DNA from: Nitrospirota bacterium
GTDB lineage: Bacteria > Nitrospirota > UBA9217
Reading direction: 5' to 3'
DNA length: 64,000 bases
NCBI GenBank assembly: GCA_963741205.1
Contig: CAVUHW010000030.1
Span: 1-64,000, forward strand
Shown one piece after another: positions 22,600-28,232 of the stretch. Position 1 is the stretch's first letter. Every line of letters begins with the position of its first letter. The notes beneath the pieces were generated by a model. That model made no database searches and had not been told where the DNA came from. It worked only from the letters and a program-made list of their open reading frames with translations. The translations under genes and the position numbers were made by a program.

Positions 22600-23061
22600 A
22601 TGATTTCTCTGACAGTAAACGGCAAAAAGCATGTGGTGGATGCAAGTCCTGACACGCCGCTGCTCTATGTGCTTCGAAATGACCTCGGACTGAACGGCCC
22701 GAAATTCGGCTGCGGCCTGGCCCAGTGCGGGGCATGCACGGTTATCATGGATGGTGCAGCGGTCCGCTCCTGCGTAACGCCGGCCTTAAAAGCAGCGGGG
22801 CGAAATATTCTGACGTTGGAAGGGCTCGGCACGCTGGAAAACCCCCATCCCCTGCAGAAGGCGTTCATCGAAGAGCAGGCGGCACAATGCGGATATTGCA
22901 TCAACGGCATGATCATGCAAAGCAAAGCCCTCCTTGACCGGAGACCCGATCCGACCGACCAGGAGATCCGCATGGCCCTGGCGTCCAATCTTTGCCGGTG
23001 CGGCGCACATAACAACATCATTCGCGCAGTCAGGCGCGCGGTACGGGAGATGAAGAGATGA
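22600..23061 (+). CDS. (2Fe-2S) subunit of a Mo-hydroxylase (IorA/NicA-like)
   Basis: KFGCGLAQCGAC, QCGYC, NLCRC. Confidence 0.92.
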   Translation: MISLTVNGKKHVVDASPDTPLLYVLRNDLGLNGPKFGCGLAQCGACTVIMDGAAVRSCVTPALKAAGRNILTLEGLGTLENPHPLQKAFIEEQAAQCGYCINGMIMQSKALLDRRPDPTDQEIRMALASNLCRCGAHNNIIRAVRRAVREMKR

Positions 23062-25269
23062 ACGACTATCCGCTCACCCGCCGCCAATTCGGCAAGATCT
23101 CAGCCGGCATCCTCGTCTCCTTCACACTCTCTCCGGAGATTGCGCGGCCAGCTGAGGCGGGACTGCCCGGAGATCTTGATAAGGCGCCCAGGCTGGATGC
23201 GTGGCTTCTTATCGATCCCGGCGGCAAGGTGACGATATTTACGGGAAAGGTGGAGCTCGGTCAAGGGGTGCTAACCGCTCTAGCCCAGATTGCCGCCGAG
23301 GAGCTGGATGTATCCCTCGCAAGCATCCGTATGGTCTCGGGTAATACTGAACTGACGCCCGACGAAGGATATACTGCAGGCAGCCAGTCGATCGAATACG
23401 GCGGCTCAGCCATCCGGTTTGCATGCGCCGAGGCACGCGCGATCCTTATTCAAAATGCCTCTCTCAAGCTCGGCGTGCCCCCTTCAGAGCTCACGGCAGC
23501 CGATGGCGCCGTAATCTCATCTGACGGAAAGAAGGTGACCTACGGAGAGATCGCTAAAGCCAACCTGCTTCACCGGACTGCTACGGCAAAGGTGCAGCCG
23601 AAGCCGGCAGCGAAGCATACGATCGTAGGCAAACCCGCGCACCGCCTCGACATCCCCGCCAAGGTGACAGGCGGCCCCGCCTTTGTTCAGGATATGCGCC
23701 TGGCCGGCATGGTCTTCGGCCGCATCGTGCGTCCGCCCGGCCCTCGCGACAGGCTCGTAGAGGTCGATTTAGCCCCGGTTAAGGCAATGCCGGGCGTGCT
23801 CGCCGCGATGCGAGACGGAAACTTCCTCGGCGTAGTAGCGGAACGCGAGGAGCAGGCGATTGAAGCGCGGGAGGCATTGAGTAAGAACGCGAAATGGCAT
23901 AGCGCGGCCGATCTGCCGGATTCTGACAAGATCCATGCATGGCTCAAGGACCAGCCGGCCGAGGATAGCGTCGTCAGTGAGAAGAAACCCGCGAATGCCC
24001 CTGCAGATCGTCCGGAGGTTCGATGCGACCTACACCAAGAGCTATGTGGCGCATGCCTCCATCGGGCCCTCCTGCGCTGTCGCTGAGATGAAGGACGGCA
24101 AACTTCGCATCTGGTCTCACACGCAGGGAGTCTACCAGCTCCGTCACGACGTCGCCACCGTGATGAAGATGGACCCCGAATCCGTGATCGTGTCCCATGT
24201 CGAGGGGTCGGGCTGCTACGGCCATAACGGCGCCGACGATGCAGCGCTCGATGCTGCTCTTCTGGCGCGCGCGGTGCCCGGCCGTCCGGTGAAGGTGCAG
24301 TGGATGCGGGACGATGAATTCGCGTGGGAACCGTTAGGCTCAGCGATGGTGATGAAGCTCTCCGCGGGACTCGCTGCCGACGACAGCATTTCCGACTGGC
24401 AGTATGAGCTTTGGAGCAACATCCACAATGACCGGCCAGGCCTTCCGGGCGGCGTAAACCTCCTGGCCGCCTGGCATCTGGACAACCCGATAAGACCGGC
24501 CCCGCTCCGGCCCATTCCCCAACCGGCCGGCGGCGCTGACCGCAATGCACTGCCGCTCTATGATTTCCCAAGCCAGAAGGTCGTCAGACACCTCATCAGG
24601 GAGATGCCGCTTCGCACCTCGGCCCTTCGCGCACTCGGGGCTTACGCCAACGTTTTTGGGATGGAATCTTTCATGGACGAACTGGCCGAGATGACCCGAA
24701 ACGACCCTGTCGAGTACCGGCTTCGGCACTTGAAGGACCCCCGAGCCAGGGCGGTGATAGAAACGGCAGCCGCGAAGGCGTCTTGGAAGGCTGGCTCGAA
24801 GAAAGACGGTAGGCACGGAAGCGGCATCGGATTCGCCAAGTATAAGAACCTTTCCTGCTATGTGGCATGCGTCGCAGACGTCGAAGTCGACCGCAAAACC
24901 GGGCGGATTCACGTCTCACGCGTGGTCGCGGCAGCGGATGCCGGCCAGATCATAAATCCGAAGGGTCTCGAGATGCAGATCGAGGGAGGCATCATCCAGT
25001 CCGTGAGCTGGACACTAATGGAGTCTGTGAGGTTCGATCGCAGGTCGGTAACTTCCCGCGACTGGGCCAGCTACCCAATTCTCACATTCCCGGAGGTGCC
25101 CCGAGTCGAGGTCCACCTGATCGACCGACCGGAGGAGAAGCCTCTCGGCAGCGGTGAGGCTTCTCAGGGACCAGCGGCAGCCGCGATCGCCAATGCGGCA
25201 AGCAGCGCCCTTGGCCGCCGCATTCGAGATCTTCCCCTTTCCCCGGGTAGAATCAGGGAGATGCGCTGA
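23058..25269 (+). CDS. Xanthine dehydrogenase-family molybdopterin subunit (IorB/NicB-like) with Tat signal; frameshift near 24000
   Basis: LTRRQF, GKVELGQG, GCYGHNGADD, QIEGGIIQ, GEASQGP. Confidence 0.9.
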
Positions 25270-26089: not shown

Positions 26090-26279
26090 TAAAATTCGAT
26101 TGTATTCTAGGGCAGTATATAATTTCCCGAATTATGCAGAGGATTCTGTGTTTGGACATTGCCTGATTCATGATGAAATTAATAAACCAGGTGGGTCACC
26201 CCGAAGGTTCCGACCGCTTTAATACTGCAGGAAGGAGACCGCGCAGCAGGCTAACGCGCGGATAGCCCGACATCGCCTC

Positions 26280-26879
26280 CTACACCCACACCACCTTCTC
26301 GAAGTCCTGCATGCCTTCCACCACGATGTTCATGGTGCCGCGGTGTCCGACCTTGAGTTCCCCTTCCAGTTTGTATTTCGCGAGGCAGGTGCCGCAGGAA
26401 TATATTTCCACACCCATCTCTTCCATGGCCTTGATTAGCCCGCACATTTCAGCATTCACGGTCGTCAAATACACGCCTGTGTTCAGAAAAAACATCGTAT
26501 GGGGCAGTTGCCTGTACGTTTTCATGGTTTCAAAAAAGGCCTTCATCAGCGTTTTCCCCAGCTCTTCCTCGCGGCCCATGATGTCGGTTCCGATGACAAG
26601 AAGCAGCGATTTTTTCTCTTCGCGTTCGGGCTTTTTCATTTGACTTTCCGTACCAGGAACTGTGCAGGTATATCCCTTCACGATCTGGACGCGCCAGTCA
26701 CTTCCCTCATTCCTTGTATCGGCAAACATGTCATGTTGAGCGGCAAATCCGGCCACGTTGAGCGCGGATTCCTCATTGTCCACGAGGACCTCGACGATCC
26801 CCTCCTTCATTTTGGAAAGCGCCTCCTCAGCCATCATGACCGGCTTGGGGCAGCCCTGCCCGCGTGCATCGATTTTCAT
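26280..26879 (-). CDS. yedF: Selenium metabolism protein YedF (TusA/SirA plus DsrE-like domains)
   Basis: GGAGG RBS; IDARGQGCPKPV, VLVDN, ELG..LM..FF, FFLNTGV, SCGTCL. Confidence 0.88.
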   Translation of the reverse strand: MKIDARGQGCPKPVMMAEEALSKMKEGIVEVLVDNEESALNVAGFAAQHDMFADTRNEGSDWRVQIVKGYTCTVPGTESQMKKPEREEKKSLLLVIGTDIMGREEELGKTLMKAFFETMKTYRQLPHTMFFLNTGVYLTTVNAEMCGLIKAMEEMGVEIYSCGTCLAKYKLEGELKVGHRGTMNIVVEGMQDFEKVVWV

Positions 26880-27056
26880 ACGACCTCCTTGTGCGTTTTT
26901 TCCTTTTACGAATTCTCGTCTCGCGACTGCGGACTTCCACATATCGTTGTAGGTCTTCACTTCGAACTGAGCCATTACTTAGTTCTTCATGAAATAATTG
27001 AGATTGCGCTTTTATCCGGATACGTAGCGATTTTTTGGCGCTCCAGTTCGCTTAAG

Positions 27057-27151
27057 TGGAGACTGGCTTCGGAATCGAACCGAGGACGAACCATGCAAGG
27101 CTGTCCGACGGGGTTGAAGCCCGCGGCCCACACCAGCAGACCTAGCCAGTC
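27057..27151 (-). tRNA. Opal (UCA anticodon) Sec-like tRNA with 8/4 fold and U73 (selC*-like)
   Basis: GACTGGCT/AGCCAGTC acceptor, 6-bp D stem with TGGT loop, CT-TCA-AC loop, long variable arm, TCGG-TTCGATT-CCGA, T-CCA. Confidence 0.9.
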
Positions 27152-27243
27152 TTTTAGAAATGCCTGATATGCGCCTCCAGGTACAAGCATTGTTTTCTCC
27201 TTTTGATAGTGACGGGATAGTTTGCCAGTTATGAATCATCGCA

Positions 27244-27287
27244 ACTATAATGAGGTTTAACAGACATGTAAAATAGATAATATCTAT
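27244..27287 (-). promoter_or_regulatory. sigma70 promoter for tRNA-yedF with an adjacent LysR-type box
   Basis: TTTACA-N17-TATAGT; ATAGAT-N3-ATCTAT (T-N11-A) at 27273-27287. Confidence 0.65.
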
Positions 27288-27341
27288 GGCAAGAGCGGGA
27301 CGTATAGGTTTGACCGGACTACCGAAACAGGGAAGGAATGT

Positions 27342-28232
27342 CTATAAGCGAGATACGGACTGTATATGTTCCAGGAACAATTGATAAAGCCGGGGAAGGA
27401 GACGCCTGCGGTGAGTGGCAATATAGAAATTTCGTTTCATTTTAACATCGATGAGCTTTATTTCTTTGAGCGTACGATGCTTCAATTCTTCGGCTACGGA
27501 CAGTCTCGACACGACGGCGATTCCCAGGCCAGCCTTGACCGCCTGCTTAATCGCGTCGCTGGAACCGAAAACGCCCGCCTGCGGCGTGCTTTCCAGGGAA
27601 AACCCCAGCGCTCCGAGAATCTTCTCCGTCTCCCGGCGGGTCCCCGAACCTTCTTCGCGCATCACCATCGGATAGTTCGACAGGTCCTTAAGCCTGATCC
27701 TGGCGGTTTTGACCAGAGACGGCGCCGCTACCACGATAAGCTCATCTTCCATGAACGGGATGTAGGAAATCTGGGAAGCGTTCAATTTCGACCCGACCAG
27801 GCCCGCAAGGAGCTCATGTTTTACGATCTTCTCCACGACGGCCCTGGAGTCGGACACAAGTACCTGAAACGAGATGGACGGGTATTTTTTTCTAAATGTC
27901 GCCATGAGGGCCGGCAGCAGGTAGGTGCCCGGGATGGAACTCGCTCCGACGACCAGTTCGCCGGCGACTTCTTTCTTAAAGCGGCCGAGGACATGACGAA
28001 TATTGTCGGCTTTTTCGATTATTTCGACGGCTTGGTTGTACAGGATCTCCGCCTCGCCGGTGGGTGCGATCTTGCGGCCCGACCGGTCGAACAGCGCGCA
28101 CTCCAGTTCTTCTTCCAGAGCCTTGATATGGTCGCTGATGGTCGGCTGGGTCAGATAGAGTTCCCGGGAGGCGCTCGAGAAACTTCGGTTCCTGAATACG
28201 GAAAGGAAAATCCTGAGATGATGCATGTCCAT
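27342..28232 (-). CDS. LysR-family regulator (selenium metabolism-associated/CysL-like)
   Basis: SFS.AS..LYLTQPTIS, GASSIPGTYLLP, REEGSGTR; next to yedF. Confidence 0.9.
   Translation of the reverse strand: MDMHHLRIFLSVFRNRSFSSASRELYLTQPTISDHIKALEEELECALFDRSGRKIAPTGEAEILYNQAVEIIEKADNIRHVLGRFKKEVAGELVVGASSIPGTYLLPALMATFRKKYPSISFQVLVSDSRAVVEKIVKHELLAGLVGSKLNASQISYIPFMEDELIVVAAPSLVKTARIRLKDLSNYPMVMREEGSGTRRETEKILGALGFSLESTPQAGVFGSSDAIKQAVKAGLGIAVVSRLSVAEELKHRTLKEIKLIDVKMKRNFYIATHRRRLLPRLYQLFLEHIQSVSRL

What the first reader, a model, noticed from the sequence alone, without database searches (positions are those of the whole stretch)
27057..27151. Opal tRNA with a Sec-type body but an 8/4 fold and U73: candidate Cys-inserting selC*-type tRNA
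Seen (minus strand): GACTGGCT AG GTCTGC-TGGT-GTGGGC C GCGGG-CTTCAAC-CCCGT C GGACAGCC-TTGCAT-GGTTCGTCC TCGG-TTCGATT-CCGA AGCCAGTC T CCA. The 6-bp D stem, long variable arm and UCA anticodon are tRNA-Sec features. However, the T stem is 4 bp (12-bp branch, not the bacterial 8/5) and the discriminator is U, not G. Known: U73 is the main CysRS identity element, and 8/4 selC* tRNA-Cys species mimicking tRNA-Sec have been described in some anaerobes. Inference: this tRNA could place Cys at Sec UGA codons, a genetic-code backup that annotation would mislabel selC.
Basis: partly seen in the sequence, partly recalled or inferred. Interest (0 to 1): 0.85.

Follow-up and report, generated by a model that had tools for sequence, protein, structure and literature searches.

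The report
Cysteine-type look-alike of selenocysteine tRNA
This is a real, conserved second UGA-reading tRNA of the known selC*/tRNAReC kind, which probably puts cysteine where selenocysteine is encoded, and here it sits directly behind the promoter of a selenium-metabolism regulator.

Summary
Window 27057-27151 (-) is a 95-nt tRNA with a UCA anticodon, an 8-bp acceptor stem, a 4-bp T stem, a 6-bp D stem with a tetraloop, a long variable arm, U73 and an encoded CCA.

It is not a mis-sequenced selC. The same genome has a separate G73 selC on another contig, plus selA, selB, a Sec-containing selD, one cysS and one tRNA-Cys(GCA). Homologues in relatives keep U73 and UCA in 17 of 17 aligned sequences. 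Ten pairs show compensatory changes.

It meets the published sequence definition of selC* tRNA-Cys / tRNAReC, a class already reported in Nitrospirae. I file it as a new member of a known kind. Charging and delivery remain inferred.

Differences from the best-described members:
- The 8/4 fold is perfect, with no bulge.
- No selB* or cysS* was found.
- The gene lies between a selenium-metabolism LysR regulator and yedF, about 90 nt behind a promoter block conserved after that regulator in relatives.
- LysR_Sec_metab genes also flank related tRNAs in Smithella-type MAGs.

This suggests selenium-responsive expression, which is untested.

The parts
27057..27151 (-). selC*/tRNAReC-type tRNA(UCA), 95 nt including the encoded CCA. 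Acceptor stem 8 bp, 2-nt linker, D stem 6 bp with a UGGU loop, anticodon stem 5 bp, variable arm 23 nt (8 pairs plus one bulged C), T stem 4 bp.
   Evidence: Covariation on 17 homologues: 96.2% of cells paired, 10 pairs with changes on both sides, 0 of 500 shuffles as high.
27115..27117 (-). Anticodon UCA (tRNA positions 35-37 counted along the sequence) in the loop CUUCAAC.
   Evidence: T35 C36 A37 are invariant in 17 of 17 aligned homologues.
27060..27060 (-). Discriminator U73, followed by the encoded CCA at 27057-27059.
   Evidence: Invariant in 17 of 17. The resident selC has G73 and the resident tRNA-Cys(GCA) has U73.
27228..27316 (-). Conserved promoter/operator block downstream of the LysR gene. 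It holds the dyad ATAGATATTATCTAT (27273-27287, T-N11-A type), a -35-like TTTACA (27267-27272) and a -10-like TATAGT (27244-27249). The tRNA starts about 90 nt downstream.
   Evidence: Consensus promoter scan. Exact 10-mer and flanks shared with 6 relatives' loci. An nhmmer profile of 7 blocks finds 3 further loci (L090, L043, L083) and only this one site in the own 4.27-Mb genome. Its function as an operator is inferred.
27342..28232 (-). Selenium-metabolism-associated LysR-family regulator (LysR_Se), upstream of the tRNA and co-directional with it.
   Evidence: NCBIfam NF040786 303.5 bits (cut-off 250). Pfam HTH_1 plus LysR_substrate.
26280..26975 (-). yedF (TusA-like plus DsrE-like selenium-metabolism protein), downstream of the tRNA on the same strand. 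The likely true start is Met33 at 26879, behind AAGGAGG. Codons 1-32 look like a remnant of another gene's N-terminus.
   Evidence: TIGR03527 180.3 bits (cut-off 110), match from residue 35. Pfam TusA and DsrE. Leader sequence and N-terminal likeness to the double-cubane reductase gene of L049.
26187..26204 (-). Terminator-like hairpin with a T-run after yedF. It is a possible end of a promoter-tRNA-yedF transcription unit.
   Evidence: This is a consensus match only.

Best explanation
The gene encodes a selC*/tRNAReC-type tRNA. It has a selenocysteine-tRNA-like body (8-bp acceptor stem, 6-bp D stem with tetraloop, long variable arm, UCA anticodon) but the cysteine discriminator U73 and a 12-bp (8/4) acceptor/T branch.

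The most likely mechanism has three inferred steps:
1. The organism's single housekeeping CysRS charges it with cysteine.
2. SelB brings it to SECIS-marked UGA codons, as reported for tRNAReC. Delivery by EF-Tu is not excluded.
3. Cysteine goes in where selenocysteine is encoded, for example at the catalytic UGA of this genome's own selD.

In this lineage the tRNA belongs to a transcription unit with yedF. It lies behind a promoter block conserved next to a selenium-metabolism LysR regulator, so its level is probably tied to selenium status.

Shown here: the sequence, the fold, conservation, coexistence with a canonical selC, and the gene context.
Inferred: charging, delivery and regulation.
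For: Structure:
- The MFE fold is the 8/4 cloverleaf at -45.2 kcal/mol, z -3.55.
- 8/4 beats 7/5 by 5.3 kcal/mol in the window copy, and is lower in 16 of 17 homologues.
- Pair 8:85 (U:A) holds in 17 of 17. The fifth 7/5 T pair holds in 10 of 17.

Selection as a tRNA:
- 10 pairs show changes on both sides, and 0 of 500 shuffles reach that.
- UCA, the T loop and U73 are invariant.

Identity:
- U73, A2:U71 and C3:G70 contrast with G73 and G1-G2 in the resident selC and in the two canonical tRNA-Ser drawn.
- The resident tRNA-Cys has G1:C72, C3:G70 and U73.
- The pattern scan of the named genome collection gave 54 loci. Three of them carry the cysteine anticodon GCA on the same body, and ARAGORN calls them tRNA-Cys.

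Coexistence with the Sec machinery:
- The own genome has a canonical selC, selA, selB and selD.
- selD reads ...SSCAG(TGA)ASK... at the catalytic site.
- A canonical selC was found in 22 of 24 same-family relatives. It was found in 5 of the 6 carriers among them (G001, G003, G010, G019, G024), but not in G008.
- Own selC* and own selC are only 56% identical.

Literature:
- Mukai et al. 2017 (PMC5389517, sections 13 and 17 read) define selC* by U73 plus a GCA or UCA anticodon. They report it in Nitrospirae and Thermodesulfovibrio, and show Cys insertion at the selD UGA by an 8/4 member in E. coli.
- Passages in PMC11415595 and PMC13582414 cite Vargas-Rodriguez 2018. They state that tRNAReC is not bound by EF-Tu, is delivered by SelB, and reads SECIS-UGA as Cys.

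Context:
- LysR_Sec_metab scores 303.5 bits and YedF 180.3 bits, both above cut-off.
- The conserved promoter block is unique in the own genome.
- In all 10 loci with the block, the tRNA lies downstream on the same strand, 0.08-4.9 kb away by my arithmetic from the coordinates.
- All 10 further LysR genes tested next to such tRNAs hit NF040786 above cut-off. Eight are from Smithella-type MAGs and two from Nitrospirota.
Against: - No aminoacylation, binding or expression data exist.
- SerRS might accept the tRNA. Mukai 2017 itself lists a long variable arm with G73 or U73 as serine-type elements in allo-tRNAs (section 13).
- U34 replaces the G34 that CysRS normally reads. Only the standard CysRS is present.
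- A 12-bp branch is the EF-Tu-type length. About half of crude ORFs (1602 of 3127) end in TGA, so an efficient EF-Tu-delivered suppressor would cause read-through.
- 7/5 is also possible in 10 of 17 relatives. Six of 17 have U.U at the first T-stem pair.
- Fifteen of the 17 aligned sequences came from a pattern that fixed parts of the 3' half. Invariance of those columns (positions 71-92) is partly by construction, and that span includes A85 and U73.
- Independent support for U73 comes from the BLAST-only set. All 11 ARAGORN-called copies, the window's included, have U8, A85 and U73.
- The regulatory link is synteny plus a motif, not a measurement. The LysR gene is tandem to the tRNA here, not divergent.
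Confidence: 0.68

Rival explanations
1. It is a second, minor 8/4 selenocysteine tRNA. SerRS charges it despite U73, SelA converts the serine to Sec, and SelB delivers it.
For: - The body is tRNA-Sec-like: RF01852 57.8 bits, and a 6-bp D stem with tetraloop of the kind SelA is known to read (recalled, not tested).
- My recollection of the Vargas-Rodriguez 2018 abstract is that one Pelotomaculum lineage of tRNAReC reverted to Sec use. That paper is not held.
Against: - U73 is invariant in 17 of 17, while every canonical selC examined has G73: own, L107, L108, L117 and both copies in G015.
- A2:U71 and C3:G70 differ from the G1-G2 start of the resident selC and the tRNA-Ser species.
- Sister sequences carry GCA, the Cys anticodon.
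- The genome already has a canonical selC.
Confidence: 0.12
2. It is a cysteine-charged general opal suppressor delivered by EF-Tu. It reads any UGA, not only SECIS-marked ones, and is kept harmless by low or conditional expression.
For: - The acceptor/T branch is 12 bp (8/4), the length EF-Tu uses.
- Mukai 2017 showed that 8/4 and 9/3 allo-tRNAs are delivered by EF-Tu in E. coli (section 15 passage).
- No dedicated selB* is present.
- Placement behind a regulated-looking promoter would fit conditional use.
Against: - TGA ends about half of crude ORFs, so general suppression would be costly.
- Citing passages state that tRNAReC is not an EF-Tu substrate and needs SelB and a SECIS.
- GCA-anticodon relatives sit directly after selB in 2 of 3 loci.
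Confidence: 0.15
3. It is a decaying or non-translational tRNA-like gene, or an assembly artefact of selC.
For: - The assembly shows frame breaks elsewhere: selA is split, Fdh-alpha has frame breaks and stops, and the Mo-hydroxylase large subunit is in two overlapping ORFs.
- One relative (L038) holds only a degenerate copy, and another (L036) has C33 in the anticodon loop.
Against: - Compensatory changes occur in all four stems and in the variable arm.
- The anticodon, T loop and discriminator are invariant.
- The window copy introduces no insertion or deletion of its own into the alignment.
- A canonical selC, 56% identical, lies on another contig.
Confidence: 0.04

Closest known systems
selC* tRNA-Cys (Mukai et al. 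2017, Nucleic Acids Res 45:2776, PMC5389517)
   Same: - tRNA-Sec-like body, U73 and a UCA anticodon.
- An 8-bp acceptor stem with a 4-bp T stem.
- Found beside a complete selABCD set in an anaerobe-type lineage. The class was already reported for Nitrospirae and Thermodesulfovibrio.
- The genome's selD has a UGA, the same kind of target the paper used.
   Different: - No A51a bulge: the 8/4 is perfect.
- G1:C72, not A1:U72.
- No selB* or cysS* downstream or elsewhere.
- The neighbours are LysR_Sec_metab and yedF. The paper's main text does not mention either (0 hits for yedF or LysR). Its supplement could not be read.
tRNAReC of Desulfotomaculum nigrificans (Vargas-Rodriguez et al. 2018, RNA Biol 15:471; known here only from citing passages, and from recall)
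   Same: It meets the operational definition used in PMC13582414: at least 80 nt, UCA or GCA anticodon, discriminator U, and coexistence with a canonical selC. The canonical SelB is the only Sec-type factor available, as in that system.
   Different: - That tRNA is clostridial and carries GCA. This one is from a Nitrospirota-like genome and carries UCA.
- The fold of the clostridial tRNA could not be compared because the paper is not held.
- No biochemical data exist for this one.
Canonical bacterial tRNA-Sec (selC)
   Same: UCA anticodon, 8-bp acceptor stem, 6-bp D stem with a 4-nt loop, and a long variable arm. It passes the Rfam tRNA-Sec gathering score.
   Different: - 12-bp rather than 13-bp acceptor/T branch.
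- U73 rather than G73.
- A2:U71 rather than G2:C71.
- The true selC of this genome is elsewhere, at C45, and is 56% identical.
allo-tRNAs (8/4 or 9/3; Mukai et al. 2017)
   Same: An 8/4 branch, a tRNA-Sec-like D arm, a long variable arm, and U73 allowed.
   Different: - Allo-tRNAs have many different anticodons and are linked to toxin-antitoxin loci, mainly in Acidobacteria (section heads and passages).
- This family has only UCA (51 of 54 pattern hits) or GCA (3 of 54), and it sits in selenium loci.
- The anticodon restriction is partly by construction: the scan pattern allowed only T or G at position 34 and fixed the rest of the anticodon.
HrsM / LysR_Se control of Cys-isoform genes in Methanococcus (as summarised in Lin et al. 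2015, PMC5322559)
   Same: A LysR_Se-family regulator sits next to a 'cysteine back-up' for selenoproteins.
   Different: There the back-up is a set of Cys-containing isoenzyme genes. Here it would be a tRNA that recodes the same genes. Regulation here is inferred from synteny and a conserved promoter block only.

Membership tests
selC* tRNA-Cys / tRNAReC | tRNA-Sec-like body: at least 80 nt, long variable arm, acceptor stem longer than 7 bp | tested here: met
   95 nt, 8-bp acceptor stem, 23-nt variable arm, 6-bp D stem with tetraloop. RF01852 scores 57.8 bits.
selC* tRNA-Cys / tRNAReC | Discriminator U73 | tested here: met
   U at 27060, followed by CCA. Invariant in 17 of 17 homologues.
selC* tRNA-Cys / tRNAReC | Anticodon UCA or GCA | tested here: met
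   UCA. The wider family has 51 UCA and 3 GCA among 54 pattern hits. The pattern itself allowed only those two.
selC* tRNA-Cys / tRNAReC | Coexists with a canonical selC and with selA, selB and selD | tested here: met
   selC at C45, selA and selB at C26, selD at C14 with an in-frame TGA.
selC* tRNA-Cys / tRNAReC | Charged with cysteine by CysRS and not by SerRS | not testable with these tools
   Indirect only: U73, A2:U71 and C3:G70 against the G73 and G1-G2 of the resident Ser and Sec tRNAs, and sister tRNAs with GCA.
selC* tRNA-Cys / tRNAReC | Delivered by SelB (or selB*) and rejected by EF-Tu; SECIS-dependent UGA-to-Cys | not testable with these tools
   One SelB over the cut-off in the own genome and in each of 5 carriers. 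No binding data.
delta-proteobacterial (8/4) selC* subgroup | Modified 8/4 with bulge A51a; selB* downstream; cysS* with A1:U72 | tested here: not met
   No bulge and G1:C72. No SelB-like or CysRS-like hit in the flanks of 11 relatives' loci. One selB and one cysS per genome. The paper found the bulge dispensable, so these are subgroup traits, not traits of the class.
canonical bacterial tRNA-Sec | 13-bp (8/5) acceptor/T branch and G73 | tested here: not met
   The branch is 8/4 = 12 bp and the discriminator is U73. The resident selC has 8 (with one G.G) plus 5 positions and G73.
allo-tRNA | 8/4 or 9/3 branch with diverse anticodons; serine or other identity | tested here: inconclusive
   The 8/4 branch is met. 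Anticodon diversity is not seen, since only UCA and GCA occur, but the search pattern allowed only those two. Serine identity is untested.

The most novel reading that the evidence does not exclude
The selC*/tRNAReC gene is a target of the selenium-sensing LysR_Se regulator. It lies at one end or the other of a LysR_Se-linked operon: last in the relatives, after rhodanese, double-cubane reductase, activase and yedF genes, and first, ahead of yedF, in this window.

On this reading the cell switches UGA decoding from Sec to Cys at the level of a tRNA when selenium runs short. This would also solve the bootstrap problem of a selD that itself needs Sec.

It would be a regulated, reversible change of codon meaning. 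It would parallel the HrsM-controlled Cys-isoenzyme switch of methanogens, but act through one tRNA. In the Nitrospirota-type lineage it would need no dedicated selB* or cysS*.
Probability: 0.35. Interest if true: 0.7.

Novelty: new member of a known kind. Interest (0 to 1): 0.45.

Why it matters
Automatic tools label this gene tRNA-Sec. Genomes that carry it would therefore be credited with two selC genes, and every predicted selenoprotein in them might in fact be made with Cys, Sec or both.

The class is known but rarely noted, and its physiological role is still open. A 2026 paper says the division of labour between tRNA-Sec and tRNAReC 'remains unclear' (PMC13582414, discussion passage).

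The link found here between the tRNA, a LysR_Sec_metab regulator, a conserved promoter block and yedF gives a concrete, testable handle on when the Cys route is used. It appears in Nitrospirota-type and Smithella-type genomes.

Tried and rejected
Sequencing error of selC: rejected. A separate canonical selC exists, and U73 and the fold are conserved.

Nine-bp acceptor stem (Rfam's A27152:U27060 pair): rejected. The 5' neighbour varies in relatives, and CCA follows U27060.

Search for selB* and cysS*:
- tblastn with the genome's own SelB and CysRS on 11 relatives' flanks found only the C-terminal end of one SelB gene, 7.7 kb from the second copy in G003.
- On the 54 pattern loci, SelB appeared only upstream of two GCA-type tRNAs.
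- Family searches gave one SelB and one CysRS per genome. The extra ~195-bit GTPase hits cover only the first 270-350 profile positions. I take them for EF-Tu without testing.

A second RF01852 hit next to selC in G048 turned out to be tRNA-Ser(UGA). The two hits in G015 are both canonical G73 selC.

Fdh-alpha as a further Sec target: the best hit has 2 TGA, 1 TAA and a frame break. This is too broken to interpret.

Stop-codon usage was estimated on crude ORFs only, and no gene finder was available.

Literature for a tRNA-LysR link:
- (yedF, selC, LysR, selenoprotein) listed 9 papers. None describes it, judged by title and abstract.
- One search showed no paper holding both tRNAReC and LysR among its top-ranked results.
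- The main text of Mukai 2017 has no hit for yedF or LysR.
- Supplements are closed, and Vargas-Rodriguez 2018 is not held. Either could already show this neighbourhood.

Structure prediction, complex prediction, the protein searches and read laying were not used.

Full report
THE OBJECT

ARAGORN calls it tRNA-SeC(tca), and it is the only tRNA in the window. Rfam's tRNA-Sec model scores it 57.8 bits against a gathering score of 47, E 4.1e-9.

The minimum-energy fold of the 95 nt is a cloverleaf with an 8-bp acceptor stem and a 4-bp T stem. It has -45.2 kcal/mol and z -3.55, and 0 of 200 shuffles fold as well. Read as 8/4, all twelve pairs of the acceptor/T branch are Watson-Crick. Read as 7/5, the fifth T pair is C.A and the energy rises from -41.5 to -36.2 kcal/mol.

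U at 27060 is followed by CCA. The genome's selC, tRNA-Cys and two tRNA-Ser genes also encode CCA after the discriminator.

Rfam's own alignment adds an A27152:U27060 pair because its consensus is the 9/4 form. The base before G1 is A, C, U or G in the relatives' copies, so I reject that register.

NOT AN ERROR AND NOT ALONE

The genome that holds the window has 50 contigs and is 84% complete. It has a second RF01852 hit at C45:23391-23485 (63.5 bits) with G73-CCA, seven acceptor pairs plus a G.G, and a 5-bp T stem. That hit is the canonical selC. One relative has a copy with C:G in place of the G.G. The two UCA tRNAs of this genome are only 56% identical.

The genome also has:
- selA and selB at C26. 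selA is in two frames, probably an assembly indel.
- One cysS.
- One tRNA-Cys(GCA) with G1:C72 and U73.
- A selD that reads ...SSCAG-TGA-ASK... at the catalytic Cys/Sec position.

CONSERVATION

A BLAST of the 95 nt against 60 relatives' genomes found matches in 12 of them. Eleven of the 36 same-family genomes are among these 12. The matches include ten full tRNA copies in nine genomes, at 78-87% identity. All ten start GAC and end GUC-U.

A degenerate pattern scan of the named genome collection gave 54 loci. Sixteen carry Nitrospirota, Nitrospirae or Nitrospiraceae titles, and these are the nearest to the window's tRNA. The phylum assignment rests on that.

I aligned 17 Nitrospirota-type sequences: the window, 15 pattern hits and one BLAST-only hit. 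I left out L104, which is cut by its contig end, and L038, a degenerate copy that ARAGORN does not call.

Results on that alignment:
- The 8/4 cloverleaf is 96.2% paired. Ten pairs have changes on both sides, and 0 of 500 shuffles reach that.
- U73, the anticodon UCA and the T loop are invariant. CCA is encoded in 13 of 17.
- The pair U8:A85 holds in 17 of 17 but never varies, so it is compatible with 8/4 rather than proof of it.
- The rival fifth T pair (69:85) holds in 10 of 17 and fails in 7.
- Six of 17 have U.U at the first T pair.
- Nearest-neighbour energies favour 8/4 in 16 of 17.

Caveat: the pattern fixed positions 71-92 of the 3' half, which include A85 and U73. Invariance there is partly by construction for the 15 pattern-derived rows. 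The BLAST-only set gives the same U8, A85 and U73 in all 11 ARAGORN-called copies, the window's included.

WHAT KIND OF tRNA

Mukai et al. 2017 (PMC5389517) define selC* tRNA-Cys as tRNA-Sec-like tRNAs with U73 and a GCA or UCA anticodon. I read the abstract, sections 13 and 17, and passages. The paper makes these points:
- selC* occurs beside a full selABCD set in anaerobes, including Nitrospirae and Thermodesulfovibrio.
- Some delta-proteobacterial members are 8/4 with a bulged A51a.
- selB* lies downstream in two subgroups, and cysS* occurs only with A1:U72.
- An 8/4 member inserted Cys at the UGA of a selD gene in E. coli.

A later paper, Vargas-Rodriguez 2018, is not held. I know it only from passages that cite it and from recall. 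Those passages say that tRNAReC is charged by CysRS, is not taken by EF-Tu, is delivered by SelB, and reads SECIS-marked UGA as Cys. PMC13582414 uses the operational rule 'at least 80 nt, UCA or GCA, discriminator U'.

The window's tRNA meets every sequence criterion. Further support for Cys identity:
- Three of the 54 pattern hits (Actinomycetota and Coriobacteriia titles) carry GCA on the same body, and ARAGORN calls them tRNA-Cys.
- Two of those three lie directly after selB.
- One of their genomes also has a G73 selC 3 kb away.
- The acceptor end (G1:C72, A2:U71, C3:G70, U73) differs from the G1-G2...G73 of the resident selC and of the two canonical tRNA-Ser drawn. It shares G1:C72, C3:G70 and U73 with the resident tRNA-Cys.

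WHAT DIFFERS FROM THE DESCRIBED MEMBERS

There is no bulge, and the first pair is G1:C72.

No selB* or cysS* was found:
- The own genome has one SelB and one CysRS over cut-off.
- The same holds in five near-complete carriers.
- Nothing SelB-like or CysRS-like lies next to the tRNA in 11 relatives' loci. The single SelB hit is the end of a gene 7.7 kb from the second copy in G003.

So the housekeeping CysRS, together with either SelB or EF-Tu, must serve it. The 12-bp branch is the EF-Tu length, and TGA ends about half of crude ORFs (1602 of 3127). Unrestricted suppression would therefore be costly. This favours SelB/SECIS restriction or tight control of expression. None of this is measured.

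CONTEXT, THE NEW PART

Upstream on the same strand lies a LysR regulator that passes NCBIfam's 'selenium metabolism-associated LysR' model (NF040786, 303.5 bits, cut-off 250). Downstream lies yedF (TIGR03527, 180.3 bits, cut-off 110).

Between the LysR stop and the tRNA there is a sigma-70-like promoter, TTTACA-17-TATAGT, at 27272-27244. An ATAGATATTATCTAT dyad overlaps its -35 element.

The same block follows the orthologous LysR gene in relatives:
- The 10-mer CTATTTTACA with similar flanks occurs in six relatives' loci, and seven times in the own genome.
- A profile of the seven aligned blocks finds three more loci. In the own 4.27 Mb it finds only the window site.
- In all ten loci the tRNA lies downstream on the same strand, by my arithmetic from the coordinates. 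The distance is about 0.08 kb here and up to 4.9 kb elsewhere.
- In between lie variable genes: tandem rhodanese, a double-cubane-cluster reductase (NF040772, about 494 bits), its activase (TIGR00241), a DNA-binding-domain-less LysR_Se paralogue, and yedF.
- In seven of the 16 Nitrospirota-titled loci, yedF ends 26-72 nt before the tRNA. In the window the order is reversed.

The first 32 codons of the window's yedF ORF resemble the N-terminus of the double-cubane gene that follows the block in L049. A strong AAGGAGG precedes Met33. I read this as a rearrangement scar that brought the tRNA next to the promoter.

In the Smithella/Syntrophaceae/'delta' group, a LysR gene lies upstream and divergent at 287-1350 nt. 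This holds in 8 of the 13 loci with at least 2.2 kb of upstream flank, plus two cut copies. All eight tested pass NF040786 at 264.9-283.6 bits, as do two further Nitrospirota ones.

No LysR or yedF hit was seen near the Desulfobulbus, Desulfococcus, Eisenbacteria, Acidobacteriota or Actinomycetota copies.

LysR_Se is the bacterial counterpart of HrsM, which controls Cys-isoenzyme genes by selenium status in Methanococcus (Lin et al. 2015, PMC5322559, passages). The inference is that the tRNA's level follows selenium status. I did not find this link in print, but the closed supplements and the unheld 2018 paper could contain it.

VERDICT

The object is a new member of a known class, with a lineage-specific clean 8/4 fold, no dedicated factors, and a selenium-regulon context that makes its physiology testable.

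My confidence that it belongs to the class by sequence is about 0.85. My confidence that it really inserts Cys at UGA is about 0.65-0.7.

Noticed in passing
window 22600-25269 (+): A xanthine-dehydrogenase-family molybdenum hydroxylase. The 2Fe-2S subunit lies at 22600-23061. The large subunit has a twin-arginine-like N-terminus and is split into two overlapping ORFs (23058-24086 and 23935-25269). This is probably a frameshift or an assembly indel. It lies 2 kb from the selenium locus, and selenium-dependent Mo-hydroxylase models are among its weak hits.
   Followed up: partly
window 26880-26975 (-) and L049:3489-3570: The first ~15 codons of the annotated yedF ORF (MAQFEVKTYNDMWKS) resemble the start of the double-cubane-cluster reductase gene that follows the same promoter block in a relative (MAGQFEVKAYPEMWRS). 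This looks like a deletion or rearrangement scar. The real yedF start is probably Met33.
   Followed up: partly
window 26987-27190 (-): A 67-codon ORF with a good Shine-Dalgarno (AAAGGAGAA, then 5 nt, then ATG) starts 39 nt before the tRNA and runs through it. It is probably a leftover of the former first gene of the operon, or chance.
   Followed up: no
G000:C26:85156-88560; G000:C22:118886-120554: selA is in two frames, with its first part open into selB's frame. An Fdh-alpha homologue has a frame break, 2 TGA and 1 TAA. The assembly seems to carry indel errors, so counts of selenoprotein genes from it are unsafe.
   Followed up: no
G000:C8:79935-80028 (-) and G000:C42:15773-15863 (-): ARAGORN calls two odd 'tRNA-Ser' genes without CCA, with mismatched stems and an off-position anticodon. 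One is drawn with an 8-bp acceptor stem. They are probably false positives or decayed tRNA-like genes.
   Followed up: no
L064:3636-5699, L094:2123-4219, L108: In two Actinomycetota/Coriobacteriia MAGs the GCA-anticodon, U73 member of the family lies directly after selB. One of these genomes has a canonical G73 selC 3 kb further on.
   Followed up: partly
G003 (L041/L051 and L029/L042); L074 and L098: Some genomes carry two copies of the selC*-type tRNA. In G003 one follows yedF, and the other lies 7.7 kb from selB and 18 kb from the canonical selC. One Smithella-titled MAG has two identical copies on different contigs, only one of them beside the LysR gene.
   Followed up: no
cross-phylum set L053-L106: selC*-type tRNAs from different phyla are 68-84% identical to one another. 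The canonical selC genes of the same genomes are 60-76% identical. This could mean lateral spread of the gene. The set was picked by a sequence pattern, which biases it upward.
   Followed up: partly
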